A DNA stretch of 64,000 nucleotides from Glycera tridactyla (GCA_965644265.1 OZ286473.1:72354001-72418000); one strand, 5' to 3'. Positions 1 to 29,361 are shown, counted from the first letter of the stretch. Program-made: numbers and translations. Notes: generated by a model from the letters alone, not told the origin.

Positions 1-1
1 A

Positions 2-220
2 CAGTTGGTCGTTGTTGGCGGAATCATAGATTCCGATTATCGGGGGGAGATATGCGTTATTCTACATAATCTGTCTCCAACGGAAATCACTACTGTCAGT
101 GCTGGTAGGAAATTTGCGCAACTAATCATCCAACCCTATCAAAAAGAAGTTCATTTTTCATTGAAAAGGTCATTGAATAAAAGCGATAGAGGTTGCGAGG
201 GATTCGGATCGTTGGACTGA
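2..220 (+). CDS. dut: dUTPase, C-terminal part (5' end outside the window)
   Basis: Motif III GIIDSDYRGE, motif IV-like GRKFAQL and motif V DRGCEGFGS occur in the correct order. Confidence 0.93.
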   Translation, partial: QLVVVGGIIDSDYRGEICVILHNLSPTEITTVSAGRKFAQLIIQPYQKEVHFSLKRSLNKSDRGCEGFGSLD

Positions 221-223
221 TAA

Positions 224-853
224 ATGAAGGTGTACGTCATAGAAGGATTGATTGGAGCCGGCAAAAGTTACCTTCTGGCACGTTTGAAAAACGCTTTTAA
301 GCACGATCCTCAGTACAGGTTTATTGCAGAACCGGCACACCTCTTTCAGCATTTCTGCGAGCACAAAGTATTCTCCCTTCTGCAAGAAAACCCGAAAGAG
401 TACGCTGTTTGCTCTCAATTGCATATTTGTAGAACTTTAGCTCAATACTATCGTGTGCAAGCTGAACTCTGGAGCAGTGAACAGACAATTGTGACCGAGC
501 GGTTTCACACTTCTCCTATTATTTTCACCAACACTCTATATCGCCAGGGGTATTTGTCGACTTTTGCCCGCGATTTACTGCTGGACGTATCGCGAGAGTG
601 TTCCGCAAATCTCGACTTGGGAGCGGATGGTATATATTACCTGTCTACGGATATCGACACTTGTCTAAAACGCATTGAGGATCGCGGTCGTACCGGGGAA
701 GTAGAATTTGTGAAGAGACAATATCTTGAAAATCTTTCTACTTCTTACAGGGAATATTTGGACTCCGTTGAGACACCTGTGAAAGTATCAGCTCATTTTC
801 AAGATTTTGAAGAACTTTTGGAGAACGTCGTGCAGTTCATCACCCAGAAATGA
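224..853 (+). CDS. Deoxynucleoside kinase (dNK/TK2-like family)
   Basis: P-loop IEGLIGAGKS, ER-containing motif TERFHTSPIIF and lid motif RIEDRGRTGE; 209 aa. Confidence 0.9.
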   Translation: MKVYVIEGLIGAGKSYLLARLKNAFKHDPQYRFIAEPAHLFQHFCEHKVFSLLQENPKEYAVCSQLHICRTLAQYYRVQAELWSSEQTIVTERFHTSPIIFTNTLYRQGYLSTFARDLLLDVSRECSANLDLGADGIYYLSTDIDTCLKRIEDRGRTGEVEFVKRQYLENLSTSYREYLDSVETPVKVSAHFQDFEELLENVVQFITQK

Positions 854-1476
854 GTCCGCCCGAGTGTTGTATCTGGTGCGCCGATCCCAACTACCCGCTA
901 GTGTCGGGAAAGGCTTATTGTACCAAGTGCCAAGCTAAAGGCCAAGAATGCGTCCGATGTAAAAGACCGATGCCGAGCAAGTACTATACACTGAACTCGC
1001 GTAGGTGTAATGCTTGCCATAAGAAATACCTCAAAGAACGCAAGAACATCAAGAAACGCTCACACCCCAGCAGTGAAGAAGAAGAGGAGGAGGAGGAAGA
1101 AGACGTGGTGGAGATGAAAGAGTTGAGCGATAGCGATAGCTCCCCGCCGGAAGAAGAAGTAGAAGAAATCACTAAACCTCCAGCGAAGAAGATGAGGAAA
1201 ACTGCTTCCCCTAAACCCAGCACGTCGTCAGAAGCTAGAAAGAGTAGCAACGCAGCAGCGGAATCCTCTTCATCAGAAATTACCGCCGTAACAACTTCGT
1301 CGGGAGTAACGAGTGCTACTGCTACAGCTGCAACCACCACCGCCAAACCGAGAGCTCGGCGCCAATATACCCGACGCCCGAAAATCCCACCGTTCATCCA
1401 AGCAGTCAATGACACTCTGAAAAATCGAGTCGTCTTTGTGCCCATCATCTGGCCCGAAGACATCAACAAAGTATAA
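850..1476 (+). CDS. Cys-rich putative zinc-finger protein with acidic and Ser/Thr/basic low-complexity tail
   Basis: Four CxxC pairs (CIWC, CTKC, CVRC, CNAC), a poly-Glu run and basic clusters. ATGA overlap with the kinase stop. Confidence 0.75.
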   Translation: MSPPECCIWCADPNYPLVSGKAYCTKCQAKGQECVRCKRPMPSKYYTLNSRRCNACHKKYLKERKNIKKRSHPSSEEEEEEEEEDVVEMKELSDSDSSPPEEEVEEITKPPAKKMRKTASPKPSTSSEARKSSNAAAESSSSEITAVTTSSGVTSATATAATTTAKPRARRQYTRRPKIPPFIQAVNDTLKNRVVFVPIIWPEDINKV

Positions 1477-1821
1477 ATGTCACTCAACACCAATGCCCGC
1501 GTCATTCACGCCCTATCAAAATCTTCACCGAAACGAATGAAGGAGTTTGTCAGCGAAACAGATGATAAATTCATCAATTTTATTTGGAACTGTGCAGAAA
1601 AAATACGCAGAGGTGATATATCTTGCAATCGAAATACACTGAAGAAATATTTCAAGCAGACGAGAAAACGCCCGCGTAACTTGAGAGAGAAACAGGCTCG
1701 ATTACAGAGTGGTGGATTCATCGGTGCAATCGTGGGAGCATTAGCCCCTCTAGCCATAAAAGCCATCGCAGGTGCAATTGCTAAGAAGAATCGCAAACGT
1801 AAAAAACGGGCCCGAAAATGA
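1477..1821 (+). CDS. Small basic Polinton protein with GG-hydrophobic tail, resembling the adenovirus pX/mu precursor
   Basis: C-terminal QSGGFIGAIVGALAPLAIKAIAGAI followed by a K/R tail; starts immediately after the preceding TAA. Confidence 0.75.
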   Translation: MSLNTNARVIHALSKSSPKRMKEFVSETDDKFINFIWNCAEKIRRGDISCNRNTLKKYFKQTRKRPRNLREKQARLQSGGFIGAIVGALAPLAIKAIAGAIAKKNRKRKKRARK

Positions 1822-2072
1822 ATGTGAAAGATTGCTGTTGTTGTTTGAAAGAGGGTATGCAATTGAACGTTTCTTGCAAATATGCCTGTTGCAATTCTAC
1901 ATTAGATACACCAGATGGTTTTGAGCGACAAGAAGAGGATACACCTGAGGACGCTGTACCATCAAATTGGAAATGCTGCTGCTTTTTCTTCACCAGATCG
2001 CCTTTACCGGTGGGGGAAGAAACGTTTCAAAAGTTTGACTCGACGAGAAATTCGAGAATTCCTAGAGAGTGA
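1818..2072 (+). CDS. Possible small Cys-rich protein overlapping the integrase 5' end
   Basis: Begins with an ATGA overlap like neighbouring real genes and fills the 1822-1914 gap (MNVKDCCCC...CKYACC), but overlaps the integrase by 158 nt. Confidence 0.3.
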   Translation: MNVKDCCCCLKEGMQLNVSCKYACCNSTLDTPDGFERQEEDTPEDAVPSNWKCCCFFFTRSPLPVGEETFQKFDSTRNSRIPRE

Positions 2073-2871
2073 ACCCTCCTACACCCTGCATCGACCCGCC
2101 ATTAAGAAATTCCCGCGCAGACAAACTTATGCTAAACATGTGAACTACCTGTGGCAATTGGACTTGGTTGACGTGAGTACGTTAGCTAAAACCAATAGGA
2201 ATTATCGATTTTTGCTCGTGAAAATCGATGTTTTGTCAAGGTTAGCTCACGTTGTTCCCCTCAAAACGAAAAGTGCCAGTGATGTAGTGCATGGATTCAA
2301 GAAACTTTTGGCAAAAAGCAAACAACAACCTGTTAAAATTCAGACGGATCGAGGTCGGGAATTTTACAACAGACTGTTTAAAGCTCTCCTCCAGAAGAAA
2401 GGCATTGTGCATTACTCAACTTTGAACGTGGAAAAAGCTGCATTAGTTGAAAGATTGAACCGCACGCTGAAAAATATCATGTATAAATACTTCACTGCCA
2501 AAGACACCACATCATATTGGAGAGTGTTGGATAAAATTGTTGACACCTATAATTCCAGAAAACATCGGAGCATTGGGATTGCCCCCGCAAAAGTTACCAA
2601 AAAGAACCAGCACCAGATTTTTGAAAAGCTTTACGGCAAACATCCTCGCACGGTGGATTTAAACACTTCCAAGTACAAAGCCGGAGATCGCGTGAGAATT
2701 GCCAGATATCGCTATGTTTTCACCCGTGGATACACTCAGACATTCACCAAAGAAGTGTTTAGAATTCTGAAAGTTCTACCGACAAATCCTTTCACCTATG
2801 AACTGATCGATTCCACGGGTGATATAATTGTGGGGTCATTTTATGCCGCAGAACTCAGCCGAGTCGGATGA
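1915..2871 (+). CDS. int: Retroviral-type DDE integrase (Polinton family)
   Basis: Catalytic triad in WQLDLVD, IQTDRGREF and ERLNRTLK; C-terminal GSFYAAEL; 318 aa, uninterrupted. Confidence 0.95.
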   Translation: MVLSDKKRIHLRTLYHQIGNAAAFSSPDRLYRWGKKRFKSLTRREIREFLESEPSYTLHRPAIKKFPRRQTYAKHVNYLWQLDLVDVSTLAKTNRNYRFLLVKIDVLSRLAHVVPLKTKSASDVVHGFKKLLAKSKQQPVKIQTDRGREFYNRLFKALLQKKGIVHYSTLNVEKAALVERLNRTLKNIMYKYFTAKDTTSYWRVLDKIVDTYNSRKHRSIGIAPAKVTKKNQHQIFEKLYGKHPRTVDLNTSKYKAGDRVRIARYRYVFTRGYTQTFTKEVFRILKVLPTNPFTYELIDSTGDIIVGSFYAAELSRVG

Positions 2872-3524
2872 GTAATTTCAACGTTTTTGATGCCCGACTC
2901 AAATTCCCATTTTCTCTAGTCATTGGTGGACCGAGCCAATCTGGCAAGAGTACTTGGGTATGCGAGCTCATAGAACATGCTCCGAGGTTGATCGACACTC
3001 CTCTGAAAAAAGTAGTCTGGTTTTATGGGGAAATGAGCGACACTATTGTCTACCTGCATGCAGCCTACGGTTCATTTATTGAAACGGTGAAAGGTCTCCC
3101 CACGAGTTTCGAGGAATACCTCGTTTCTGGGACACTCATCGTGCTGGACGATTTGTATGCCGAAGCGGGGTCTTCCCAAGCCGTTGCCAAATTATTCACG
3201 CGTCAATCACACCACAGAAAAGTCGGGGTGATTCTCATCACGCAAAATATATTTTCGGAAGGCAAACAGCGGAAAACCATCACTAAATCTGCACACTATT
3301 GGGTTCTCTTCAACAACCCTCTGGATAGGAGCGTGGCATATTCGCTGGGCTTGAAAATCATGCCGCAGGACATCAAAACTTTCATGCATATATACAATGC
3401 CGCCACCAATAAGCCACACGGGATGTTATTTATCGATGGTACACAAGACATTGTGCCCGAGGCACGTTTTCGTTCGGATATATTCAACCCTCAGTATCAG
3501 TTAGTTTATATCCCCCTACGATGA
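2868..3524 (+). CDS. A32/FtsK-like DNA packaging ATPase
   Basis: Walker A GPSQSGKS, Walker B LIVLDD and the Polinton-type SHH...ITQN motif. Confidence 0.93.
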   Translation: MSNFNVFDARLKFPFSLVIGGPSQSGKSTWVCELIEHAPRLIDTPLKKVVWFYGEMSDTIVYLHAAYGSFIETVKGLPTSFEEYLVSGTLIVLDDLYAEAGSSQAVAKLFTRQSHHRKVGVILITQNIFSEGKQRKTITKSAHYWVLFNNPLDRSVAYSLGLKIMPQDIKTFMHIYNAATNKPHGMLFIDGTQDIVPEARFRSDIFNPQYQLVYIPLR

Positions 3525-3820
3525 ACTCGCGCACACGTCCATTTGTTGGTTTAGTCCACGTTACGGAATCTGTACAAAAAACAAAAGACCTGATCGAGTG
3601 GGGTTCTAAAGAACATATCGAGGCCTTATGCGAGTGTATATATAACATCCTGATTGGGAATGTTCCCATACCAAAGAGTCTGACAAGCCAGCTCAAACGA
3701 TCTCGGACTACATTGCGAGCTGTGATCGGTAAAAACATTTCTTTACGTATGAGGAGATTGCTGATAAAGAAAAAAATTCGCCTAGTGAAACGCATGTTGA
3801 AGCACACGTTGCGAAGATGA
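3521..3820 (+). CDS. Small basic Polinton protein, probable paralogue of 1477-1821 lacking the GG tail
   Basis: The segment IEALCECIYNILIGNVP aligns by eye with INFIWNCAEKIRRGDI of the 1477 ORF; K/R-rich C-terminus; ATGA overlaps at both ends. Confidence 0.7.
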   Translation: MNSRTRPFVGLVHVTESVQKTKDLIEWGSKEHIEALCECIYNILIGNVPIPKSLTSQLKRSRTTLRAVIGKNISLRMRRLLIKKKIRLVKRMLKHTLRR

Positions 3821-4368
3821 GTTTCACCGAAAGTGTCATCATCCCACTATCGGTGTTTGAAAAATGTAATTTCACCAAAGAAACAGAAGAAAACATATTA
3901 CTCGACGAGAAATTACCATCCAGTAAAAAAATGATGTTATATCAACAAAAACTGATGAGGAAAAGAACGAGAGAAGACCGTCTCAAACAGCCCGATACCA
4001 CAACAGACACCACACCATTTGCAGAAGACATCCTTTCTCGTACACCGAGTCGTCATCATCCCGTGGTGGACAACATCATCAAAATCGTCAAACAACACCC
4101 AGAGTCCATCAGATGGAATGAGAATTATGAAGTAGTTCTCAACGACAAATTACTACCGAACACCAATATCTTAGATATACTACAATATCTGTTGAACACC
4201 AAAGTGATCACGAGTGGACGAGATGTGCCTATAGCATCCGAAAGAATCAAGGAGGCATTACTAGATATTGGTGTTCCTTCCAGTTGGTTTCCCCGCAGAA
4301 GTTCTCGAAAGAAATCAGAAAGTCAAACAGGCAAAGGCAGATTGAAATGGGCGAAATGGCGACTTTGA
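3817..4368 (+). CDS. Conserved Polinton/Maverick protein of unknown function
   Basis: 183 aa. Motifs KKMMLYQQKL, IRWNENYEV..LPNTNILDI and LLDIGVPSSW recall the conserved protein usually found between the ATPase and minor capsid genes (from memory, not searched). Confidence 0.7.
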   Translation: MSFTESVIIPLSVFEKCNFTKETEENILLDEKLPSSKKMMLYQQKLMRKRTREDRLKQPDTTTDTTPFAEDILSRTPSRHHPVVDNIIKIVKQHPESIRWNENYEVVLNDKLLPNTNILDILQYLLNTKVITSGRDVPIASERIKEALLDIGVPSSWFPRRSSRKKSESQTGKGRLKWAKWRL

Positions 4369-5153
4369 AACATATGTACATCACCCTTCCTTCAAATGTA
4401 AGGTCAGACGAGTACAGCGAAAACATGATCGGGCATTATCATACCATCATACCAGAAACTCTTGATTTCTCCAATGGGCTGTGGGAATGTGCATTGGTCG
4501 AATTTGCTTTCCCCTGCACCTGGTATAACGTGACCGAATCGGAAAATGAGATAGCAGTCACTCTCGATCGTGGTGCAAGGAAAAGAACTCTAGATTCTCA
4601 TATTTCCGCCGGGTTTTATGAGTCCATCCCCAAATTGTTATCCGAGATGAATGACGTCATCGGAATAATGGGAGGGGTGTCAAGCAGGCTTGTTTTCAAC
4701 GAATTCAATAGAAAAGTCGGTTGTAAAGTTTATAATGGTGAAAAAATCCTGTTGAAAGCCGCCCTACGTCAAAAACTTGGATTTACACAACATGACGTTC
4801 TCGATCGTACGCGCTGGATTGCAAATCACCGATACACAACTGTCCATGCCGGTCACGTGGCCTGCTTAGATCCGTCACTTTACAATATATACATCTACTC
4901 GAACATTGTGAAAAACTCGGTGGTGGGCGGGGTCTATGCGCCTCTATTAAGAACCGTCACTCTCGATTCCACCGTAGGTATCTTGTCATACCAGAATATG
5001 ATATTTGACAGTCCTCATTATGTACCGCTAATACAAAGCTACGTAAAACACATCGAAATCAAAATTGCGGACGATCAAGGAGACGTCATCCCATTCAAGT
5101 TTGGAAAAATCATCGTGAAACTACACCTTCGTCAAAGACCCACGGCAATATGA
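4356..5153 (+). CDS. Minor capsid (penton-like) protein
   Basis: N-terminal YITLPSN...WECALVEF..P and C-terminal IYSNIV...PLLR...Y.PL...IEIKI.DDQG..IPF; lies upstream of the major capsid gene. The start could be 4347, 4356 or 4374. Confidence 0.85.
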   Translation: MATLKHMYITLPSNVRSDEYSENMIGHYHTIIPETLDFSNGLWECALVEFAFPCTWYNVTESENEIAVTLDRGARKRTLDSHISAGFYESIPKLLSEMNDVIGIMGGVSSRLVFNEFNRKVGCKVYNGEKILLKAALRQKLGFTQHDVLDRTRWIANHRYTTVHAGHVACLDPSLYNIYIYSNIVKNSVVGGVYAPLLRTVTLDSTVGILSYQNMIFDSPHYVPLIQSYVKHIEIKIADDQGDVIPFKFGKIIVKLHLRQRPTAI

Positions 5154-5545
5154 GACGATGCGGTTACACCCCGAACAAAAACTTTTACCAGAATTATTAT
5201 GCTGAAGGGAATGCTCTTCCCTATTTTCAGGGGGAATTATACCAGCGAGGAAGCGGACTCGGGTCGAGGATATTGTCCACGATGTGGAACATCGCAGGTC
5301 CCCTAATAAAACCCAGGGCAACCAAACTTCTCGGACAAATCACCAAGAAAGTCGGACTGAACCAAGGTGTGCGCAGTAAAATCGCAAGACGAGCCATCGA
5401 ATTAGGTCTGGATACGGTGGACAACCTGATACAAAAGACCAAGAAGAAAAAAACGAAACAACAGACTCGTAAACGCAAAAATCATCCGTCCCAAACTTCG
5501 AAAAGATCAAAACGGCGACGCGTGGTGGAAGACATCTTGGATTAG
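5150..5545 (+). CDS. Basic core protein (pVII-like)
   Basis: YY...LPYFQG..YQRGSGLG motif followed by an amphipathic helix and a K/R-rich C-terminus. Confidence 0.75.
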   Translation: MRRCGYTPNKNFYQNYYAEGNALPYFQGELYQRGSGLGSRILSTMWNIAGPLIKPRATKLLGQITKKVGLNQGVRSKIARRAIELGLDTVDNLIQKTKKKKTKQQTRKRKNHPSQTSKRSKRRRVVEDILD

Positions 5546-5554
5546 CGCGTCATC

Positions 5555-6892
5555 ATGAGTCTCATGCACAAATGTTCGCAAGAATGCCCCCGACCCGAGT
5601 TGAATTTATTCAGCATCCCACCAACTCAGACTAGCATATTGAAAGTACACTATAGAGATTATCACCCGTTGACGTCTCTCGACAGAGGAGGTCCCATCCA
5701 ATTTCGCATCATTTCTGGAGATACCGATTTCGTCGATCTTCGACATGCCGTCCTGTATCTCAAAATGAAAATCATAAAGACGAACGGAGATGACATCGCG
5801 GCACCTGCTGCAGATGCTACACCGACAAATCAATCCCTTGTTTACCCCATATGTTACATTCATGCCACTCAGTTCAAGAACATCGAAATCGCTGTCAATG
5901 GTCGACAAATCGGGGTGAGCGAAACCATGTACCCTTATAAAGCTTATTTCGAGGCTTTACTATCACACGGCGCAGATGCGAAAGATCACACTCTAGCTGC
6001 GGGTATGTTTTACCAAGATACTGGCGATTTCGACGAGAGAGATGTTGCTTCGGAATCACCGGCTGCGGGGAAAGGAGCTGTGTCCAGATTCAAAAAAACT
6101 CAATATTCAACTACATTTGAAACAATTGGCCAAATACACCACGAGTTGTTCAATCAAGATAAACTTCTACCTAACAACACAGAGATACGCATCGTTCTTC
6201 ATCGGGCCGATAACGCTTTCTCGCTGATGTGCAAATCAGACACTCATACCAATTTCAAGATAGAAATAAGCGATGCTCAGCTGAAAGTACCTCACTGCGA
6301 AATATCTTCTCACGTTTTAGAAGCACTTACCAAACAGCTTCAAACGCGACCTTACCTATACGAAATCAAGCGCACCAGAGTGCGTTGGTATAGTAGGAAT
6401 AGCGGAACGAGTGATTTGAGTGAGGCCAATCTGATCAACGGGATCATCCCTAGAAGAATCGTTCTAGGCATCGTTGAAAGTTCTGCTTTTTCCGGCTCGT
6501 TCCAACATTCTCCATTTAATTTTCAGCATTTCAAAGTCAGCTCGTTGGTGTTGAGAGTTGATGGGCTGACCGTCCCTTTTCAGTGTCTGTCCATGGATTA
6601 CGACGAGGACTGTTACATGCAAGCTTATTTATCGCTGCTGCAGTGCACGGGAATTCTCTACAAAGATGCAGGCATCAAGATCTCACCGAGTGCTTATCCC
6701 AACGGCATGTGTCTGTATGCATTTGATCTTGGATTAGCCAATCGCAGCTCGCTCAATCTTCTCCACGAGGGAACCGTGTCAGTCGAAATCAAATGTGCAG
6801 CTAACACCACCGCAAGTGCTACCGTGATTGCCTACTGCGAGATGGACGACATTTTGGAATTGGACAAAACAGGTGTCATAATCGATGATTGA
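5555..6892 (+). CDS. Major capsid protein (double jelly-roll, Polinton type)
   Basis: N-terminal C..PELNLFSIPPTQTSI, later PRRIVLG..SAFSG...SPFNFQHF; 445 aa, uninterrupted. Confidence 0.92.
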   Translation: MSLMHKCSQECPRPELNLFSIPPTQTSILKVHYRDYHPLTSLDRGGPIQFRIISGDTDFVDLRHAVLYLKMKIIKTNGDDIAAPAADATPTNQSLVYPICYIHATQFKNIEIAVNGRQIGVSETMYPYKAYFEALLSHGADAKDHTLAAGMFYQDTGDFDERDVASESPAAGKGAVSRFKKTQYSTTFETIGQIHHELFNQDKLLPNNTEIRIVLHRADNAFSLMCKSDTHTNFKIEISDAQLKVPHCEISSHVLEALTKQLQTRPYLYEIKRTRVRWYSRNSGTSDLSEANLINGIIPRRIVLGIVESSAFSGSFQHSPFNFQHFKVSSLVLRVDGLTVPFQCLSMDYDEDCYMQAYLSLLQCTGILYKDAGIKISPSAYPNGMCLYAFDLGLANRSSLNLLHEGTVSVEIKCAANTTASATVIAYCEMDDILELDKTGVIIDD

Positions 6893-7430
6893 AGAAATGA
6901 ACAACAGACAAATTAGCGCACTACTCAATAGTAACAGTACAGTATCCCGTGTTTTCAAAGGGGTATTCCCCCGAGACGCTGAACTTGAACGCGAGGACGG
7001 GGCTTATGTTTTCAATACAGATAAAACGGGTGACTCGGGTACACATTGGATTGTCTGTATCATCGATCGTAGTTCTCAGAATTTCTATTTTGATAGTTAT
7101 GGTTTACCCCCACTATTTGAGGAGTTTGAAATCTTCTTAGCACCCAGCTACGATTATAGTACTGAACAATTTCAACAATTTTATTCCTCTGTTTGTGGGC
7201 ATTATTGCGTGTATTATATCACCCAATACGCTAGAGGATTGACCCATAGTGAAATATTAGAAATTTTAGCTCAGAAACAAAATATAGATGTGTATGTAGC
7301 GTTATTCACCTCGCAAACATATAATGTCAATTTAGAAATATTTGATGTACCGTATGTGAGAAAACAAATTTCACAACTCCGTTCATATTTTCATAAAAAA
7401 TATGAACAGAAATTTGGCAATGAATCTTGA
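6885..7430 (+). CDS. Adenain/Ulp1-like cysteine protease (virion maturation)
   Basis: His in NTD...GTHW, Asp in YFDSYG and Gln/Cys in QQFYSSVCGHYC, in clan CE order. Confidence 0.93.
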   Translation: MIEEMNNRQISALLNSNSTVSRVFKGVFPRDAELEREDGAYVFNTDKTGDSGTHWIVCIIDRSSQNFYFDSYGLPPLFEEFEIFLAPSYDYSTEQFQQFYSSVCGHYCVYYITQYARGLTHSEILEILAQKQNIDVYVALFTSQTYNVNLEIFDVPYVRKQISQLRSYFHKKYEQKFGNES

Positions 7431-8343
7431 CCCGTCTGGCATTCAAGATCATCTTGGTTACCTTCAAAGACAGGTATTCGATGCTGACCCACAAAGACTT
7501 TTCTATCTGCTTGAAGGTCAGTATCTGTCTCCTCTCAACGCCCACCAGCTGAAAAAATCATTACTCTCATTCCGATTATCTGACCTGGAACAGTATGGGA
7601 GTTTTGTCATTAATTTCTGTGTCTACCAAGATATTAACAATTGCCAATCGATTGCCAAAGTTGATCATTGGGCAAGGATCAGCTATCAACAAATATACGC
7701 AATTCTAAGTACATTGAACAAGATGTTTGACATCGTGGATTCTCCTTCATCGAATCGAAAATTGCATGACTTCCATTATTTTTTGTACTTGTTCAAACTT
7801 AGAATTGAAGGATTGGTTCTGGCTACTAACTTTGATTTTATAGTAGAAGAGAGTCCTCTACCGAAACCCAGTCTTTTTTCTCTATGTTGGCACGTGTTGA
7901 TGAGAGACATCAGACTCTCTCATCAGAATCAAATATATAAAATACTTTTGACTGGTGCCACCAATCGCAAATTAGAACCACCATTGAACACACTGCATTA
8001 CCTTCCATATTTTGAAGAAACCAAACTGATTTGTGCGGTTCCAGTCAAATTTATTTTTAGATATACCAATTATTATACCAATCATCTTCCATTTGAACAG
8101 TTTCACAATCAAGAAACGAACCTCTGTTTAGTTTGTAATGCTAGAATTTTACATCTACCTGGGGATTTTTGTATTCACTCTTGCAAGTCATGTATAGGTC
8201 TTTGTCGCTGTCTTCCATGTTCTGACTGTGAATTCAATCAACGAAAAATATTTGATTTCCTGCGAAACTATAGAGGAAATCGTAATATTTGTTTGATGGA
8301 TTTATTGGAAGAAGATAGAACAAATGGGTACACTGTTTTGTAA
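7402..8343 (+). CDS. Orphan 313-aa protein with a BC-box-like motif and Cys-rich C-terminus
   Basis: Long ORF directly after the protease; contains PSLFSLCWHVL and CLVC...CIHSCKSC..LCRCLPCSDC. An alternative start lies at 7420. Confidence 0.7.
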   Translation: MNRNLAMNLDPSGIQDHLGYLQRQVFDADPQRLFYLLEGQYLSPLNAHQLKKSLLSFRLSDLEQYGSFVINFCVYQDINNCQSIAKVDHWARISYQQIYAILSTLNKMFDIVDSPSSNRKLHDFHYFLYLFKLRIEGLVLATNFDFIVEESPLPKPSLFSLCWHVLMRDIRLSHQNQIYKILLTGATNRKLEPPLNTLHYLPYFEETKLICAVPVKFIFRYTNYYTNHLPFEQFHNQETNLCLVCNARILHLPGDFCIHSCKSCIGLCRCLPCSDCEFNQRKIFDFLRNYRGNRNICLMDLLEEDRTNGYTVL

Positions 8344-8376
8344 ACCAAAAATTTGTTCTCTCTTTTTCAGCTCATA

Positions 8377-8859
8377 ATGTCTCAGCCTCTCCTCCCCGCA
8401 TACGTATCCCGAGTATTTGTGCCGTTCGTCTCCGAATGTGTTTCTGAGGCAATCAAGACAGTGGTCGGTCCCAATGCGTCTCCGTTCTCGTTCGAACAAG
8501 TTAGAGCAGCTCGCGAAGTGACCGACCTCAGCGAGCTAGATTGGTGTGCCACCGAGTGTGTTTCCCCGTGGCTCACACCCGAAGAACAGCGGAATGCCAC
8601 CGAGGAATTGGTTGCCGGCAAAACAAAATGGGAAATACAGCTATTATTTCCCGATTATACTCCCACGTGTTACACGCGTCACGTCAGTTGTATGAAATCA
8701 CAACCATACGTGGTACTCATGCAACGAGACGCTCCGTGGTGGGATATAAAACTGCCCGTTGAAGAAGATCCCGACCCCGTCGTGGTGGAGTTGTGTCGTA
8801 AAAACACAACTCAAACATCTCTCACCATGCACGAGCGATGGAATAACGATTGGAACTGA
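8377..8859 (+). CDS. Orphan 160-aa protein
   Basis: ATG at 8377 inside the 8353-8859 open frame; protein-like composition; last ORF of the packed block. Confidence 0.65.
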   Translation: MSQPLLPAYVSRVFVPFVSECVSEAIKTVVGPNASPFSFEQVRAAREVTDLSELDWCATECVSPWLTPEEQRNATEELVAGKTKWEIQLLFPDYTPTCYTRHVSCMKSQPYVVLMQRDAPWWDIKLPVEEDPDPVVVELCRKNTTQTSLTMHERWNNDWN

Positions 8860-8930
8860 TTCCTCGGTAGTACTATTGTTCTTCGGGTGGTAAGTTCACG
8901 CGCAAATGTATTTTCCGGTAAAATGTTTTG

Positions 8931-9009
8931 GTTTTTGTTTATTGATTATATAGCACGAAGTTTGAGGATTAGTTTTTGTTTATTGATTATATAGCACGAA
9001 GTTTGAGGA
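8931..9009. repeat. Tandem duplication, 41-bp period, 2 copies
   Basis: GTTTTTGTTTATTGATTATATAGCACGAAGTTTGAGGA at 8931 and 8972. Confidence 0.95.
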
Positions 9010-10303
9010 ATGTTACAACAAATTAATTGTATATTTATTGTCTGTGGGATGTGGTGGGAGTCCAGGGTTTTTCTATAGATGGTGACCACCGATGGGCGTG
9101 GGTCATTTACTTTCAAGTGTTGCCATCGAGAGGTGATATAGCTTAAATGGTAATATCACCCCTTCTCTCTCTATAGTTTTCAAAAGGGGGTGGGGAAATC
9201 CGAATGAAAAAATCATACCTGTGAAATTCTCTATAAATCTATCTTTAGGTATTTCCTTACAAAATTACACTATCATTTGATTACTTTTTCTTCACATCTA
9301 TTCTCTCTCTCTCTATTCTTGATTCTTCAGCGAATTAGTCCTCAAGTGTAGATAACTGATAGGTTTACTATTAGTTATTTCCACTCGACAACTTTTTCAA
9401 ATTCCTTCACCATTTTGTGTTCTAGATTCATGTAAGTGATGTCTGCAGAAGGACGGAACATCTAACTTTCATTGATCGTGAACACACATATATATATATA
9501 TATATATATTATATACACGCACATACATATACATAACAACGAGGGCATTAATCCCTGCACTGATATGGTTCTTCTCCAGCTCTAGCATCAGTCGCGTTCA
9601 AAAATATCTTCTCGCTGTTACAGAGGATCACTCTGTAGCATCATTTTGAGTCATGTCCTTCTTGCAATCTTTCACATGTATGACCACCATGTCATGCTCT
9701 TTGTGGATATCTTTCACTTCACAGCTCACGCAGTTGCTGTCATAGCAGATCCTCTTCTCGCCATGTTGTCGAAACTCTTCGAGCGCACTAGGTTCCGGGG
9801 TATTAAATTCATGTACTGAGGCTATCCATAAATGTTCACTGGTACTCCACAATATTGCCCCTCGCAATGATGTGTGACTAGCATCACGTGATATATATAT
9901 ATATATACGAGTTTAATCCTTCATAACGCTACTGTCGTTGAAAGAAGTGTATTAAATTAGTATGCCGTCATTAGGACAGAAATAATGCCCATCGTGGAGT
10001 AATAGATTGCAGATGTGCATCTGCCGGTTCCTCATTTCCTCCATCTGTGTGTGTGTGTGTGTGTGTGATACAGAGAGAGAGAGAGGTCTTCTCCAGAAAG
10101 TGTTCACTTTTGGGTCTTGTAGACTAGCATCCGCTTGCTAGCAGAAAAGAGAGAGACGGTTCTCCAGAACCACATATGCTGCACTCATATTCCCGTCCTC
10201 CTGTATGAATTTTGACATGTTTTTTCACAACATCAAAATTTTAGATGGTGTTTTTCTTGCTGAATATATGGTTCCCCCCCTTCGATTCTTATGATATACA
10301 CAT

Positions 10304-10341
<38 letters not shown>

Positions 10342-11023
10342 AATTGAACGAGTTTAATCCTTCATAACGCTGATGTCGTTGAAAGAAGAAGGAGTAAAAA
10401 CAAAAATACCAGTCATATTTCTTGCTGACATCGGTCGGCGGGCCCCGCACTAGGTTCTAGATATCTTCTCGCTGTTACAGAGGATCACTCTGTAGCATCA
10501 TTTTGTGCCATGTCCTTCTTGCAATCTTTCACATGTATGACCACCATGTCATGCTCTTTGTGGATATCTTTCACTTCACAGCTCACGCAGTTGCTGTCAT
10601 AGCAGATCCTCTTCTCGCCATGTTGACGAAACTCTTCGAGCGCACTAGGTTCCAGGGTATTAAATTCATGTACTGTGGCTATCCATAAATGTTCACTGGT
10701 ACTCCACAATATTGCTCCTCGCAATGATGTGTGACTAGCATCACGTGATAAATATACGAATTATATCCTTCATAACGCTACTGTCGTTGAAAGAAGTGTA
10801 TTAAATTAGTATGCCGTCATAAATTGAACGAGTTTAATCCTTCATAACGCTGATGTCGTTGAAAGAAGGAATAAAAACAAAAATACCAGTCATATTTCTT
10901 GCTGACATCGGTCGGCCGGCCCGCACTAGGTTCTAGATATCTTCTCGCTGTTACAGAGGGGATCGGTTCTGTAGCGAATGTCCTCTCATTCAACCCTCGA
11001 GGTCTTCTCCAGAAAGGAGCATT

Positions 11024-11225
11024 GGATCTTGTAGACTAGCATCCGCTTGTTAGCGGTTCTTCTGCTATGTTGATGGATATTGTCCCTCCACCACAATTGT
11101 TTGATCAGAACCAGCCATCACAGTATCTGCATGGATCTTGTAGACTAGCATCCGCTTGTTAGCGGTTCTTCTGCTATGTTGTTGGATATTGTCCCTCCAC
11201 CACAATTGTTTGATCAGAACCAGAC
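11024..11225. repeat. 109-bp tandem repeat, about 2 copies
   Basis: GGATCTTGTAGACTAGCATCCGCTTG starts at 11024 and 11133. Confidence 0.9.
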
Positions 11226-12213
11226 ATCACAGAATTTGCACTTGTAGCTGCTTCCCTTTGAGTGAGTTGATTTGTTCTCTCCGAAAGTTTGTAGACAAAA
11301 AATAATATTTTAGACGGAGAGGGTGTTCTTCTCACTGTTGGTGTTCTCTGAATGTTTAGTTCCCCCTGATTCTTTGTACCCGTGATATATATATATAAGT
11401 TGATCGAGTTTGGTCTTTCATAACGCTGATGTCGTTGAAAAGAAAGAGTATTTCTCTGAATGTTTAGTTCCCCCTGATTCTTTGTACCCATGATATATAT
11501 ATATATATATATATATATAAGTTGATTTAGTTTAGTCCTCCATAACGCTGATGTCGTTGAAAGAAGGAGTAAAACAAAAAATACCAGTCATATTTCTTGC
11601 TGACATCGGTCGGCGGGCCCCGCACTAGGTTCTAGATATCTTCTCGCTGTTACAGAGGATCACTCTGTAGCATCATTTTGTGTCATGTCCTTCTTGCAAT
11701 CTTTCACATGTATGACCACCATGTCATGCTCTTTGTGGATATCTTTCACTTCACAGCTCACGCAGTTGCTGTCATAGCAGATCCTCTTCTCGCCATGTTG
11801 TCGAAACTCTTCGAGCGCACTAGGTTCCAGGGTATTAAATTCATGTACTGTGGCTATCCATAAATGTTCACTGGTACTCCACAATATTGCTCCTCGCAAT
11901 GATGTGTGACTAGCATCACGTGATAAATATACGAGTTAAATCCTTCATAACGCTACTGTCGTTGAAAGAAGTGTATTAAATTAGTAAGCCGTCATAAATT
12001 GAACGAGTTTAATCCTTCATAACGCTGATGTCGTTGAAAGAAGGAATAAAAACAAAATACCAGTCATATTTCTTGCTGACATCGGTCGGCCGGCCCGCAC
12101 TAGGTTCTAGATACCTTCTCGCTGTTACAGAAGAGATCGGTTCTGTAGCAAATGTCCTTCTCATGTTTATTCAGCCCTCTTCTCCAGAAAGTGTTCACTT
12201 TCTCTTGGGCATT

Positions 12214-12525
12214 GGATCTTGTAGACTAGCATCCGCTTGTTAGCGGCTCTCCTGCTAGGTTGTTGGATATTGTCCCTCCACCACAATTGTTTGATCAGAA
12301 CCAGCCATCACAGTATCTGCATGGATCTTGTAGACTAGCATCCGCTTGTTAGCGGTTCTCCTGCTATGTTGATGGATATTGTCCCTCCACCACAATTGTT
12401 TGATCAGAACCAGCCATCACAGTATCTGCATGGATCTTGTAGACTAGCATCCGCTTGTTAGCGGTTCTTCTGCTATGTTGATGGATATTGTCCCTCCACC
12501 ACAATTGTTTGATCGGAACCAGACA
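12214..12525. repeat. 109-bp tandem repeat, about 3 copies
   Basis: Same unit, starting at 12214, 12323 and 12432. Confidence 0.9.
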
Positions 12526-13449
12526 TCACAGAATTTGCACTTGTAGCTGCTTCCCTTTGAGTGAGTTGATTTGTTCTCTCCGAAAGTTTGTAGACAAAAA
12601 ATAATATTTTAGACGGAGAGGGTGTTCTTCTCACTGTTGGTGTTCTCTGAATGTTTAGTTCCCCCTGATTCTTTGTACCCGTGATATATATATATATAAG
12701 TTGATCGAGTTTGGTCTTTCATAACGCTGATGTCGTTGAAAAGAAAGAGTATTTCTCTGAATGTTTAGTTCCCCCTGATTCTTTGTACCCATGATATATA
12801 TATATAAGTTGATTGAGTTTAATCTTTCATAACGCTAATGTCGTTGAAAAGAAAGAGTATTTCTCTGAATGTTTGGTTCCCCCTGATTCTCTGTACCCAT
12901 GATATATATATAAGTTGATCGAGTTTAATCTTTCATAACGCTGATGTCGTTGAAAAGAAAGAGTATATCAGTTGATCGAGTTTAGTCCTTCATAACGCTG
13001 ATGTCGTTGAAAAGAAAGAGTAAAATCAAAAATACTATTTCAGATTCTTTCTGGTCCTTAATAACCGTCTTGTGTTGAACAGAAGGACCAGAAAGTTTCT
13101 CTTAACAATAATATAGGTTCCAAGGTATTGAGTTCATGTACTGTTGTGATTCCTCGTGCACTGGCAATGGATTTCTCCCCCCATGTTCTGCAAAGAGGAA
13201 GTCTTCTTCAAAAATGTTAGTGAGTCCTGTAGACTAGCTCACATTACGCATCTGGTTATCAACTTCTTTGAACGCCTTATCTGCGAGTTCAAGCTCTGTC
13301 TTTGCTTGATTCAAGGTGACTTGTGCAGATGACTGGCAAGCCTCCATTGCCCTGATCTGATTGTTGTATTGGGTCGTCCTCTTAATAACCACTCGACATA
13401 ATATAGTTTGTGCTCAGTTTGTGTCATTTTTCTCATGATTCTTTGTACC

Positions 13450-13508
<59 letters not shown>

Positions 13509-14264
13509 TTGATCGAGTTTGGTCTTTCATAACGCTAATGTCGTTGAAAAGAAAGAGTATTTCTCTGAATGTTTGGTTCCCCCTGATTCTCTGTACCCAT
13601 GATATATATATAAGTTGATCGAGTTTAATCTTTCATAACGCTGATGTCGTTGAAAAGAAAGAGTATATCAGTTGATCGAGTTTAGTCCTTCATAACGCTG
13701 ATGTCGTTGAAAAGAAAGAGTAAAATCAAAAATACTATTTCAGATTCTTTCTGGTCCTTAATAACCGTCTTGTGTTGAACAGAAGGACCAGAAAGTTTCT
13801 CTTAACAATAATATAGGTTCCAAGGTATTGAGTTCATGTACTGTTGTGATTCCTCGTGCACTGGCAATGGATTTTTCCCCCCATGTTCTGCAAAGAGGAA
13901 GTCTTCTTCAAAAATGTTAGTGAGTCCTGTAGACTAGCTCACATTACGCATCTGGTTATCAACTTCTTTGAACGCCTTATCTGCGAGTTCAAGCTCTGTC
14001 TTTGCTTGATTCAAGCTGACTTGTGCAGATGACTGGCAAGCCTCCATTGCCCTGATCTGATTGTTGTATTGGGTCGTCCTCTTAATAACCACTCGACATA
14101 ATATAGTTTGTGCTCAGTTTGTGTCATTTTTCTCTATGTTACAGAAAGATCAGTCCTCTCTCTTCTGTTTCAGAATACTGTAAACTAGATATTTAAATAA
14201 TGTGTTGTTATGTCTAAATAAAATACCTTCTCTCTCTCTCTCTATGTTACAGAAGGATCTTAAA

Positions 14265-14771
14265 ATGTCGTCATCATCGCCCCATCAAAAAGCATCGCTA
14301 CCTCAAGCATTTTTAACCTCTCGCTCATCAGAATATATTATTTTATTAACAAAAACTATCTGGGTGCAATTAATTATTTTAACTACCGAAATAATGGAAG
14401 AATTAGCGGGGGACTATATTAATCATGATGAAAAATTCCAATCATTTGACTTGTGCTTAGTGAAACTTTTAGAAAATTTAGAATTTGAGGAACTCTTCCA
14501 CATATTGTACGAGAATGAACAATATTTACGAACAATGTCTCAGGTGTGGGAAAATCGAACTGTTGGGGAGATTATCAAAAGACAATCAAAATTAACTAAA
14601 AATATAGTAATAGAAGATGTTGAAATTTATACTAATAAAATCAAAAAAGAATTAACAGATGGTCATCATATAAATGAATTTAGAGACATTGTTTGTACTA
14701 ATAGCAAACGCCAGTCATTCTCGGACAGTACTGCCATTTTAGATGATTGTGAAAAATTAAAAATTTATTAA
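14265..14771 (+). CDS. Orphan accessory protein (168 aa from ATG 14265, or 125 aa from ATG 14394)
   Basis: Only long AT-rich open frame after the array; charged helical composition; preceded by a pyrimidine tract and TTACAG at 14247-14252. Confidence 0.5.
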   Translation: MSSSSPHQKASLPQAFLTSRSSEYIILLTKTIWVQLIILTTEIMEELAGDYINHDEKFQSFDLCLVKLLENLEFEELFHILYENEQYLRTMSQVWENRTVGEIIKRQSKLTKNIVIEDVEIYTNKIKKELTDGHHINEFRDIVCTNSKRQSFSDSTAILDDCEKLKIY

Positions 14772-15333: not shown

Positions 15334-15379
<46 letters not shown>

Positions 15380-15385
<6 letters not shown>

Positions 15386-17800: not shown

Positions 17801-17993
17801 AATTGATTTTGACGAAAGAATCCATTCCAAAACAAATATTCGACTTGCTCGTATGCAATATCGCCAATCGTCATTCTAAGAAAGCCCCAATGCAGCAGAT
17901 TCCAAATATAGACGATGCTCAATTTGACTAACAAAGCGAATGTACAAGAATCCGAATTTTTGAAAGTGAATTGTCCACATTGATTTACTAATG

Positions 17994-18691
17994 CGTTCGT
18001 GCAACCTGAAAATGCGAGTGTGCCAAATTGAAAAGTTGGACCAATAGATGACTTGGTCATATAGCGATAGAATACGTCTGAATACATTCTGACAGAATGT
18101 GTCCGAAATGCAAAGTTTAAGGATATAAGACTTGGTCAAAGAGAAAAGTAAATTGCTCAGATTCATTTACTGGCGCGGTGGCGCGGTTCCCCCACCAGGG
18201 GTTTGTGGCGCGGTGGCGCGGTTCCCCCACCAGTTTGAAGGGTCCCGTTCGTGCAACCTGAAAATGCGAGTGTGGCAAATTGAAAAGTTGGACCAATAGA
18301 TGACTTGGTCATATAGCAATAGAATACGTCTAAATACATTCTGGCCGAAATGCTCGAGAATCCAAAGTTGAAGGATATATGACTTGGTCAAAGAGAAAAG
18401 TAAATTGCTCAGATTCATTTACTGGCGCAGTGGCACGGTGGTGGTGGCAAATTGAAAGTTGGACCCATAGATGACTTGGTCATATAGCAATAGAATACAT
18501 CTGAATACATTCTGTCAGAATGTGGCCGAAATGCTCGAGAATCCAAAATGTAAGGATATATGACTTGGTCAAAGAGAAAAGTAAATTGCTCAAATTCATT
18601 TACTGGCGCGGTGGCGCAGTTCCCCCACCAGGGGTTTGGAGCGGTGGCGCGGTGGCGCGGTGGCGCGGTTCCCCCACCACTATATACTACT
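17994..18691. repeat. Probable right terminal inverted repeat region of the Polinton, built of ~180-250-bp sub-repeats with GGTGGCGC octamer runs
   Basis: Three related units start near 17994, 18246 and 18444, each ending in CATTTACTGGCGC(G/A)GTGGC. The last ends CCACCACTATATACTACT, after which unrelated sequence begins. Confidence 0.65.
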
Positions 18692-25000: not shown

Positions 25001-25919
25001 GGGCAAAGCGTGGTATTTGAAACAAGGAAAATGATCAGGCTCGGAAATACCCTAACTAAACCCAGGTTTTTTGTGATCTCCGTTGGAGATCATTATGCTG
25101 CCACCTCTCTGCTCGAAATGCTTTCTAAGTTTGCCGATTCTGACTCTGGAGGCTGATATGATCAAACGAATCTTGATCGGATCTGTGTGAAAGGATCGAA
25201 TGATCTAATCTAACACAATTTTAAGATGATTTATTGATCTGAGGAACGACAATTCGAGGAAATGTACCGATTACGTAATGGACATTTCGCCATACATTCG
25301 TTTTTGTTGCCGATTACCAAAGCATACAGATACAACAGCTCAGAGATGTATAGCTACGCACAAATAGTAAATGTCTGTCAATCAAGCTCTCTGGGCACGC
25401 CCACTTCAGAGCCGGGACTACTTTTTCACACAAATAGTGCAGTGTATTGGGGCTAAATAACAGATGAAATATCAGACTCACAGTGAAAATGATCATATGA
25501 ATGGATTGCTTTACATCCATTCATCTTATCTGTATGCATGAATCTTGAAAGATCCATGTTTTGGTCAATATGATCATTTGTAGGGGTGTAAAGTAGTGCC
25601 TCTTGTTCGAACCTCATTACCAGGTTTGATGGATCACTGCGCCGATTCATGAATGAAGTTGTAGATGGCATGTGTAAAACCAGCAAATCAGAAAGCAGCA
25701 CTAGCACGAATGAGGGCGATTCGATGAATGTTTCAGTTTGTGATGGATCTTGAGTGTCTGTGAATTTCATAAATTTTCACCTTCTGTTTGGGACCCAGAA
25801 GAAGAAGTCTTGGAAGATCACACCCATGCCCATTGCATGGGCGTCACAATATAGCCCAACAACCAACAACTGGAACATGGCCATAAGACAAATCCACAGG
25901 TGGCTCGCTCATGACTCGC

Positions 25920-26007: not shown

Positions 26008-26193
26008 TTATGTAACCTGGCTGTTAATATCTACCTGTCTCTCCCTCAAATTTAGCATCCCACATGCCTAAATACCTACGTTCGAACTTCACAACAAAGT
26101 GAAGATTTCACTAGATGGACCTCCATGCCTCCCCGATGCCTCCAGCCACCTAGTGCCGCCAATGCCTCACTAGTGACCTGGCGACCTCTGTGC
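26008..26193 (-). repeat. DIRS 3' inverted terminal repeat (26021-26193) plus 13-nt terminal extension (26008-26020)
   Basis: Reverse complement of 33337-33510 with a few mismatches; the extension TTATGTAACCTGG is complementary to the ICR. Confidence 0.9.
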
Positions 26194-26247
26194 ATGCGCG
26201 CGGTGTATTTTCACAACAATCAGCGGGACGGATGGGAGGGTCCATCT

Positions 26248-26343
26248 ATTTGAGGGAGAGACAGGTAGGTATTAACAGCCAGGTTACATAAAAAACCTGG
26301 GTTTAGTTAATACCGTCCCTGTCTCTCCCTCAAATTTAGCATC
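26248..26343 (-). other. DIRS internal complementary region (ICR)
   Basis: 26248-26291 is the reverse complement of 26008-26051 (1 mismatch); 26307-26343 is the reverse complement of the 33472-33508 terminus. Confidence 0.9.
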
Positions 26344-26378
26344 AGAATATAGCACGGATGGTGGGCGAATTACCCAAA

Positions 26379-29340: not shown

Positions 29341-29361
29341 GACAGAGTCGCGCCCCCCATC

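What the first reader, a model, noticed from the sequence alone, without database searches (positions are those of the whole stretch)
9883..13720. Array of about 15 promoter-like modules (TATA at -28 to a TCA initiator-like core) with variable cargo
Seen: an almost invariant core TTCATAACGCT..TGTCGTTGAAA, an imperfect hairpin whose variation falls mainly in the loop. It usually follows a (TA)n run. TATATAA or TACATAAA starts exactly 28 nt before the A of TCA in the copies I measured (12693/12721, 12907/12935, 10336/10364). Three copies have a palindromic E-box ATCACGTGAT just upstream (9883, about 10740, about 11915). Spacing between cores ranges from 57 to about 700 nt, with reshuffled cargo. 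Known: this spacing is the canonical TATA-Inr geometry. Inference: an expandable cassette array of Pol II promoters oriented like the viral genes; the core could also be a recombination boundary. I know of no description of this in Polintons but could not search.
Basis: partly seen in the sequence, partly recalled or inferred. Interest (0 to 1): 0.75.

Follow-up and report, generated by a model that had tools for sequence, protein, structure and literature searches.

The report
Hairpin-promoter repeat array in a Maverick
A virus-like Maverick transposon carries 15 copies of a short AT-rich-plus-hairpin module separated by broken, back-to-front pieces of zinc-finger and coiled-coil-like coding sequence; the array likely grew by repeated duplication and deletion of one old cassette, and the module likely acts as a transcription-control element, which is still untested.

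Summary
In detail: 15 exact cores at 9922-13712, none by chance, none elsewhere in the window. They sit in the gene-poor right arm of a Maverick/Polinton (genes 1-8859, end motif 18686-18691). The reading needs revision. The cargo is not reshuffled foreign DNA: all long spacers share one colinear scaffold and hold broken minus-strand coding remnants, two of them C2H2 zinc-finger pieces. Short spacers are deletion products, and the three E-boxes are one junction copied three times. A strict TATA box at -33..-28 is present in 8 of 15 cores, a looser one in 13 of 15, but the copies share ancestry. The core is modestly more conserved than its flank (P about 0.03), with one compensatory pair; the hairpin is weak. 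Other samples hold the array with other unit orders. Best reading (0.45): a cis-acting promoter/enhancer-type palindrome module amplified by unequal recombination, working like baculovirus or WSSV homologous regions. Neutral decay is the main rival (0.3). No transcript start could be tested. New variant of a known kind; interest 0.4.

The parts
1..8859 (+). Gene block of the host Maverick/Polinton (14 packed ORFs, cut by the window start): dUTPase, deoxynucleoside kinase 224-853, rve integrase 1915-2871, A32-like ATPase 2868-3524, major-capsid-like gene 5555-6892, adenovirus-type protease 6885-7430
   Evidence: ORFs; Pfam; capsid relatives
9055..9475 (.). Likely dispersed host repeat inserted between the genes and the array; contains a long hairpin at 9332-9398
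   Evidence: Several divergent contigs with loose ends at 9055-9411 in 4 of 4 runs; fold z -5.4; dispersal inferred
9488..14260 (+). Whole array: 15 modules plus paralogous spacers
9896..9969 (+). Module 1, type A (loop CTACTGT), core 9922-9943, after a 17-nt TA run; ATTAAA at +29
10337..10410 (+). Module 2, type B, core 10363-10384; CATAAA at -26, AGTAAA at +30
10745..10890 (+). Modules 3 (type A, core 10771) and 4 (type B, core 10843), 72 nt apart; the spacer is a microhomology (CAT) deletion form of the 9944-10362 spacer
11393..11588 (+). Modules 5 (type C, core 11419) and 6 (C-like upstream, B-like downstream, core 11541)
11920..12065 (+). Modules 7 (type A, core 11946) and 8 (type B, core 12018): copy of modules 3-4 within a ~1175-bp duplication
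12694..13038 (+). Modules 9-12, type C, cores 12720, 12828, 12934, 12991; spacers 108, 106 and 57 nt are deletion forms
13502..13738 (+). Modules 13-15, type C, cores 13528, 13634, 13691: part of a 700-bp, 99%-identical duplication of 12794-13493
   Evidence: the duplication junction is not seen in contigs of X1, X3, X5
9883..9892 (.). ATCACGTGAT palindrome ('E-box'), also at 10740 and 11915: one junction between two scaffold motifs, copied with its unit
   Evidence: junction origin inferred
10127..10240 (-). Broken C2H2 zinc-finger coding remnant (38 open codons, ending at the TAG of the shared GACTAGC motif)
   Evidence: Pfam zf-H2C2_2 E 1.3e-5, below cut-off; 140 PDB zinc-finger matches
12447..12608 (-). 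Second zinc-finger remnant (54 open codons; a shorter copy at 11217-11309), a different finger or paralogue
   Evidence: Pfam E 0.0054; identical to the first mainly at H, G, Y, C, C
13937..14113 (-). Coiled-coil-like coding remnant (59 open codons, same TAG; copy at 13237-13413)
   Evidence: only weak helical-protein hits; coiled coil judged by eye
11663..11935 (-). Cys/His-rich open frame of 91 codons (copies 9631-9912, 10488-10760); B-box-like by eye only
   Evidence: no support from Pfam, PDB or two protein searches
12213..12539 (+). 109-bp tandem unit without a core, 3 copies (2 copies at 11023-11240)
13042..13100 (+). Strong 13-bp hairpin downstream of core 12991 (copy near 13742-13800); a 10-bp hairpin holds the same slot in B-type spacers (e.g. 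10473-10497)
   Evidence: z -4.9 and -2.3
14244..14771 (+). Only long ORF downstream of the array (175 aa), no known relatives; its 5' flank repeats the array's TTACAG motif
18686..18691 (+). ACTACT, likely right end of the Maverick, after repeats at 17963-18679
   Evidence: (ACT)2 end motif per PMC8097293 passages

Best explanation
The array is a copy-number-variable repeat region in the accessory arm of a Maverick/Polinton, likely built by serial tandem duplication and microhomology deletion of one old cassette, and its ~48-nt AT-box-plus-palindrome module likely works in cis as a Pol II promoter/enhancer-type element, in the manner of baculovirus and WSSV homologous regions. Shown: 15 modules, one colinear scaffold, broken minus-strand coding remnants, deletion junctions, other unit orders in other samples. 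Inferred: (1) the ancestor was a small family of accessory genes (zinc finger, coiled coil) on the minus strand, separated by this intergenic module; (2) the genes decayed while unequal crossing-over and slippage at the (TA)n runs and the shared module multiplied the units; (3) the palindrome arms and their distance to the AT box were kept because a protein binds them or the fold matters; (4) any + strand transcripts would start in or near the core, be non-coding and antisense to the remnants, and could end at the poly(A)-like hexamer just behind the next core; the only intact gene they could serve is ORF 14244-14771.
For: Colinear marker order in every long spacer and 70-87% identity between spacer types. 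Microhomology junctions for the short units. Recent duplications of about 1175 and 700 bp. Zinc-finger remnants match each other at the finger-defining residues while differing at 17 of 39 bases, and three remnant types end at the same TAG. Among the 12 non-A copies 12 of 48 gap-free columns vary, only 1 in the core, in its loop; scan-corrected P 0.027. All variation inside the core is in the loop. One C-G/T-A compensatory pair in the lower stem. TATA-like hexamer at -27..-25 in 13 of 15, poly(A)-like hexamer at +27..+30 in 9 of 15, against 0.7% and 2.7% of random host positions. Geometry favours + over - (8 versus 1 of 15). Contigs of other samples cover the array and show a unit order absent from the window. 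hr anatomy as described in PMC2855118 and PMC3496565 (passages).
Against: The 15 copies reduce to a handful of lineages, so the counts are not independent, and the motif patterns were chosen after seeing the data. Strict TATA is missing in 7 of 15 and is otherwise supplied by a microsatellite. The conservation excess is modest and could come from gene conversion or hairpin-templated repair instead of selection (inference). The covariation term is 0.01, and 4 of 12 rows break the one covarying pair. The arm duplicates readily without the core (42-, 99-, 109-, 181-bp units), and the GACTAGC motif recurs 13 times (up to 5 edits). No relative of the module was found in three public collections, so conservation across Maverick families is untested. 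hrs are described as several loci around a circular genome; here there is one locus. No binding protein is identified.
Confidence: 0.45

Rival explanations
1. Neutral decay: the same duplication history, but the module has no current function. It is in every unit because units are defined by it and because the (TA)n run and weak palindrome promote slippage and conversion.
For: Core-free duplications throughout 8.9-18.7 kb; broken cargo; weak folding (74-nt windows -8.7 to -14.7 kcal/mol, z below -2 in 2 of 15); hairpin-breaking variants exist (11541, 12991, type A); TATA supplied by a microsatellite.
Against: Loop-only variation and P 0.027 for the core; no gaps over 48 nt while spacers are full of indels; an AT box survives at the same distance in three different forms.
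Confidence: 0.3
2. RNA cassettes: each module starts and ends a short non-coding transcript, and the product matters, as antisense or small RNA against host zinc-finger or coiled-coil genes (for example silencing factors).
For: Cargo is antisense to C2H2 remnants; TATA-like and poly(A)-like hexamers bracket the core; + strand folds more stably than - in 12 of 15 windows; extra hairpins in a fixed slot behind the core; B-type units have a 10-pair complement of the loop about 60 nt downstream (4% of controls reach it).
Against: No Rfam family reaches its gathering score; hairpins from the proposed start are no better than shuffles (z 0.0 to -1.65 in 11 distinct windows); the downstream complement is strong in one lineage only; remnants are short and frameshifted, and identity to host genes is unknown.
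Confidence: 0.13
3. Site-specific recombination sites (integron-like) that shuffle cassettes.
For: Imperfect palindrome with unpaired bases and a 7-nt centre; crossover-like junctions at 12991 and in X6 (12739 to 10386).
Against: Cargo is paralogous, not independently acquired; type A and type B upstream flanks keep their own downstream flanks in 6 of 6 copies; deletion breakpoints lie outside the core at microhomologies; no recombinase other than the rve integrase among the 14 ORFs seen (the left part of the element is outside the window).
Confidence: 0.05
4. Binding-site array for replication or packaging (iteron or adenovirus packaging-domain type) instead of transcription.
For: Palindromic core in many copies; hrs are also proposed origins; an earlier AI note reports a palindrome array beside a zinc-finger ATPase in another Polinton-like element (unchecked).
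Against: The array is 5-9 kb from the end of an element whose replication is thought to start at the termini (recalled); the ATPase here shows no zinc finger; spacing is irregular.
Confidence: 0.04
5. End of a dispersed MITE, SINE or Helitron, or an assembly artefact.
For: On the minus strand the order stem-loop, ATTAAA, (TA)n recalls a LINE/SINE tail (recalled); the whole genome could not be searched; the 700-bp duplication is not seen in three other samples.
Against: No copy in the other 59 kb or on the minus strand; no inverted partner of the core in the array; no tRNA-like head; sequence next to the TA runs is conserved, not variably truncated; array pieces are present in 4 of 4 runs from 3 studies.
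Confidence: 0.04

Closest known systems
WSSV (nimavirus) and baculovirus homologous regions, hrs (PMC2855118, PMC3496565; passages read)
   Same: Repeated units with a conserved central imperfect palindrome and more variable flanks, in non-coding DNA of a nuclear dsDNA virus; unit number varies between isolates; proposed enhancer or origin function.
   Different: One locus in a linear, integrated Maverick; units of 57-702 nt built from decayed coding sequence; a TATA-like box at fixed distance and a poly(A)-like hexamer behind the palindrome; no function shown.
Accessory regions of vertebrate Mavericks (PMC8097293; passages read)
   Same: Variable region between the core gene module and the terminal repeat; (ACT)2 end motif.
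   Different: There the region is described as holding further ORFs; here about 5 kb is a modular repeat array with broken antisense remnants. The passages found mention no such array.
TATA plus initiator promoters of WSSV early genes (PMC2855118; passages read)
   Same: TATA-like box 20-30 nt before a TCA-containing motif; the core also contains ATNAC, the late start motif described there.
   Different: TCATA does not fit the (a/c)TCANT motif; no ORF follows most modules; no start is mapped.
Retroviral LTR U3-R junction (recalled)
   Same: Order TATA, hairpin, poly(A) hexamer within about 60 nt, repeated on both sides of a cargo.
   Different: No TG...CA ends or primer-binding site were seen by eye; the hexamer is absent in 6 of 15 copies.
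Hammerhead retrozyme arrays in animals (recalled)
   Same: Small conserved structured core repeated in tandem with variable spacers; CUGAUG...GAAA letters occur in the commonest variant.
   Different: The catalytic core CUGANGA is not met in any copy, two loop variants lose CUGA, and Rfam has no match.

Membership tests
Maverick/Polinton (host element) | Retroviral-type (rve) integrase | tested here: met
   PF00665 E 1.9e-12 at 1915-2871
Maverick/Polinton (host element) | Packaging ATPase and adenovirus-type protease | tested here: inconclusive
   Pox_A32 E 0.0045 and Peptidase_C5 E 0.00065, both below cut-off, in the expected gene context
Maverick/Polinton (host element) | Double jelly-roll major capsid protein | tested here: met
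   Indirect: 73 relatives at E<=1e-20; 2 of 23 aligned members and P0026, P0061 hit PF21738 weakly; the window protein itself has no Pfam hit
Maverick/Polinton (host element) | (ACT)2 3' end motif | tested here: met
   ACTACT at 18686-18691 after repeated sub-terminal sequence; motif from PMC8097293
Maverick/Polinton (host element) | Protein-primed polymerase B, paired terminal inverted repeats, 6-bp target duplication | not testable with these tools
   Left part is outside the window; no genome held
Baculovirus/nimavirus homologous region (hr) | Repeat units with conserved imperfect palindrome and variable flanks | tested here: met
Baculovirus/nimavirus homologous region (hr) | Unit number varies between isolates | tested here: met
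   Joint 12739 to 10386 in X6; X1, X3, X5 contigs run from 13434 into 14135-type sequence (contigs only)
Baculovirus/nimavirus homologous region (hr) | Several loci dispersed over the viral genome | tested here: not met
   One locus in the 18.7 kb seen; the rest of the element is unseen. Not filed as an hr.
Baculovirus/nimavirus homologous region (hr) | Enhancer or origin activity | not testable with these tools
   Needs reporter or replication assay
Pol II TATA-initiator core promoter | TATAWAWR at -33..-28 of an initiator A (consensus recalled) | tested here: inconclusive
   8 of 15, 7 of them from one lineage; looser hexamer in 13 of 15
Pol II TATA-initiator core promoter | Mapped transcription start | not testable with these tools
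   Only contigs were available; they show no starts
pre-miRNA cluster | Stable ~60-nt hairpin, well below shuffles | tested here: not met
   -8.7 to -14.7 kcal/mol, z below -2 in 2 of 15; z 0.0 to -1.65 from the proposed start; no Rfam family at gathering score
Hammerhead ribozyme / retrozyme array | CUGANGA ... GAAA ... UH core with three stems (recalled) | tested here: not met
   Loops are CUGAUGU, CUAAUGU, CUACUGU; no ribozyme match in Rfam at E<=5
Integron-type cassette array | Unrelated gene cassettes exchanged at the site | tested here: not met
   Spacers are colinear paralogues
Integron-type cassette array | Linked tyrosine recombinase | tested here: inconclusive
   None among the ORFs seen; left part unseen
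Dispersed MITE/SINE/Helitron end | Copies outside the element, on both strands | tested here: inconclusive
   0 in the other 59 kb of the window; genome-wide search impossible

The most novel reading that the evidence does not exclude
Each module is a miniature promoter-plus-poly(A) unit, so the array is an expandable bank of cassettes that makes short capped RNAs antisense to host C2H2 zinc-finger and coiled-coil genes: an RNA-based counter-silencing device carried by a Maverick.
Probability: 0.1. Interest if true: 0.8.

Novelty: new variant of a known kind. Interest (0 to 1): 0.4.

Why it matters
In the papers I could search, almost nothing is said about cis-acting elements of animal Mavericks beyond their ends. 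A module present 15 times, in three natural variants and in several samples, gives a ready test of how an endogenous Maverick is transcribed, and would extend hr-like palindrome arrays to this group. If the RNAs matter (novel case), it would be a counter-defence against host zinc-finger factors. If neutral, it is only a good example of how an accessory arm decays by duplication.

Tried and rejected
Relatives of the core: none in viral contigs, metagenome contigs or genome contigs. Related Maverick loci: none in viral contigs; one in metagenome contigs (L001, 72% DNA identity to window 3373-6286, does not reach the array); its record is not searchable. No whole genome. Sequencing runs: 8 of 10 listed hold part of 9500-14300, none half of its words, no RNA holder on record; X1 and X3 are only guessed to be RNA, contigs show neither strand, start nor level, so depth was not used. 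B-box reading of 11663-11935: no Pfam hit, no hit among longer proteins, two phmmer hits that are tandem-repeat chance matches, an unrelated designed protein in PDB, bacterial trypsin-like leads in the Atlas judged spurious. ORF 14244: no relatives; the Atlas could not read it. Rfam: 15 matches at E<=5, all far below gathering scores, the best on microsatellites. tRNA: 0. A 16th degenerate core near 9530: score 42, below the 95th percentile of host controls, 45. Pre-miRNA-like hairpin from the proposed start (seen): general only in B-type units, rejected as a shared feature. My idea that the TATA geometry works equally in the minus direction was not borne out. Splice-acceptor-like motifs are 2.3 per kb on + in the array against 0.7-0.8 elsewhere, but they are few motifs multiplied by duplication, and no spliced joint was listed; the 8929-8972 joint is a 42-bp tandem duplication. 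One search used a structure out of register with the alignment and is discarded; replace it. Helitron, LINE-tail, Integrator 3' box and Pol III readings were considered by eye from recalled consensus motifs and dropped for lack of fit across all three module types. Earlier findings: nothing by place, sequence or the first word search.
Full report
Observation. The core is real: 15 exact matches on the + strand between 9922 and 13712, none elsewhere in the window at up to 3 mismatches, none in 100 shuffles. Spacings run from 57 to 702 nt. A TA run of 11 nt or more precedes 9 of 15 cores; a strict TATAWAWR at -33..-28 is found for 8 of 15.

Context. Positions 1-8859 hold 14 packed + strand ORFs with dUTPase, deoxynucleoside kinase, rve integrase (E 1.9e-12), weak A32-ATPase and adenovirus-protease hits and a capsid-like gene with 73 relatives, some with weak double jelly-roll hits. 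ACTACT at 18686-18691 fits the (ACT)2 end motif in PMC8097293 (passages read). The array therefore lies in the accessory arm of a Maverick/Polinton. The polymerase, left end and target duplication are outside the window and no genome was held. An animal host is inferred from the named capsid relatives.

The module. About 48 nt, from -26 to the end of the core, align without gaps. Three types exist: A (3 copies), B (3) and C (9, one with a B-like downstream flank). Inside the 22-nt core only two loop positions vary. Among the 12 non-A copies, 12 of 48 columns vary and only 1 is in the core; a scan over all 22-column windows gives P 0.027 (type A left out because its upstream is altered by a junction; columns treated as independent). 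The fold is a 5-bp upper stem, an asymmetric A-rich bulge and a 6-bp lower stem (11 distinct copies). RNAalifold on 12 of 15 copies (three duplicates left out) predicts 10 pairs, one with a change on both sides (CG 4, UA 4, broken 4), covariation term 0.01. Stability is low: -8.7 to -14.7 kcal/mol for 74 nt, z below -2 in 2 of 15; as DNA about -5 to -7 on either strand (3 copies). A TATA-like hexamer (TATAAG, CATAAA, GATAAA, TATATA) lies at -27..-25 in 13 of 15, and a poly(A)-like hexamer (AATAAA, ATTAAA, AGTAAA) at +27..+30 in 9 of 15; random host positions give 0.7% and 2.7%. These patterns were chosen after seeing the data and the copies share ancestry. A mirror test found TATA-initiator geometry on + for 8 of 15 and on - for 1 of 15, against my expectation that the TA run would make it symmetric.

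The cargo. Fourteen marker motifs taken from the window by coordinate occur in the same order in all long spacers, and spacer types align at 70-87% in shared blocks. The 72-, 106-122- and 57-nt units are deletion forms with short microhomologies, and ATCACGTGAT arises where two scaffold motifs were joined, in one unit later triplicated (origin inferred). On the minus strand the spacers hold open stretches: a C2H2 zinc-finger piece at 10127-10240 (Pfam E 1.3e-5, below cut-off, 1 of 11 fragments scanned; 140 PDB matches), a second at 12447-12608 (E 0.0054), a coiled-coil-like piece at 13937-14113 and a Cys/His-rich piece at 11663-11935 that no database supports. The two finger pieces agree at H, G, Y, C, C while differing at 17 of 39 bases, which suggests they diverged while still coding; the finger and coiled-coil frames all end at the TAG of a shared motif. 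The cargo is thus best read as the remains of a small minus-strand gene family, antisense to any transcript from the proposed promoters.

Dynamics. Recent duplications of about 1175 and 700 bp are 95-99% identical. Core-free tandem units of 41-42, 99, 109 and 181 bp show that the whole arm duplicates easily. In 4 of 4 runs from 3 studies, contigs cover parts of the array (bins with depth: 30, 29, 30 and 16 of 30). An X3 contig spans 9098-9633; an X6 contig joins 12571-12739 to 10386-10490 through a core, an order absent from the window; X1, X3 and X5 contigs run from 13434 into sequence matching 14135 onward, without the 700-bp duplication junction. The array is real and variable. These contigs give no strand, start or level, and none of the runs is on record as RNA.

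Mechanism. I commit to a cis-acting promoter/enhancer-type module amplified by unequal recombination (0.45). The duplication history is close to shown; the function is inferred from fixed spacing, loop-only variation and one compensatory pair, all modest. Neutral decay with conversion or hairpin-templated repair explains much of the same (0.3). Functional antisense or small RNAs (0.13) fit the orientation but lack stable precursor hairpins and Rfam matches. Site-specific recombination, packaging or origin sites, a dispersed element end and an artefact are each unlikely.

Comparison. It works most like the homologous regions of WSSV (nine regions of 3-8 units of 250-300 bp with a conserved imperfect palindrome and variable flanks, proposed origins or enhancers; PMC2855118, passages) and of baculoviruses (PMC3496565, passages). 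It is not filed as an hr: one locus was seen and no activity is shown. The Maverick survey describes accessory regions with extra ORFs, and the passages found for 'promoter', 'tandem' and 'noncoding' mention no such array; the adintovirus paper has no occurrence of 'promoter' or 'non-coding' (PMC8502044, passages). Eight literature searches (listings and abstract starts only, apart from the four papers named) showed no description of such an array in a Polinton. The library lacks most subscription papers and Repbase entries, and I read no supplements, so this is weak evidence of novelty. LTR, hammerhead, Helitron and integron features are recalled, not from a call.

Verdict. Observation confirmed; interpretation partly supported; new variant of a known kind; interest 0.4. 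The most novel reading left open, a bank of antisense RNA cassettes against host zinc-finger genes, has probability about 0.1 and interest 0.8.

Noticed in passing
window 9055-9475: Likely dispersed host repeat inside the Maverick arm, with a 67-nt imperfect palindrome at 9332-9398 (z -5.4); many divergent contigs in all four runs.
   Followed up: partly
window 8929-9009: 41-42-bp tandem duplication present in the window but skipped in contigs of X1, X3 and X5; it mimics a GT..AG intron.
   Followed up: yes
window 14244-14771: Orphan ORF downstream of the array, preceded by a pyrimidine tract plus TTACAG (splice-acceptor-like) and an AATAAA at 14217; ORF 8377-8859 has a similar acceptor-like flank at 8370.
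   Followed up: partly
window 15361-17420: A second family of degenerate repeats (63-98% alike) in the Maverick arm, with a 70% match in host DNA at 25754-25859.
   Followed up: partly
window 17963-18691: Sub-terminal region built from 181-252-bp repeats and GC-rich TGGCGCGG units, ending in ACTACT.
   Followed up: partly
window 2-853: The Maverick carries dUTPase and deoxynucleoside kinase genes next to its core module.
   Followed up: no
window 26034-33496: Element with 160-nt inverted ends (94%) and minus-strand ORFs with a reverse-transcriptase RNase H-like domain; perhaps a DIRS-type retroelement. A 78-nt repeat lies in ORF 30098-32257.
   Followed up: no
window 35001-36000: GC drops to 0.14 in this kilobase, with an ORF called at 35234-35962; possibly low-complexity sequence or a gap.
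   Followed up: no
window 45419-46290 and 51517-51783: 25-bp and 38-bp minisatellites in host DNA.
   Followed up: no
X6 contig 24 on window 4569/5259: A joint between opposite strands inside the Maverick gene block in one contig; an inversion or a chimera.
   Followed up: no
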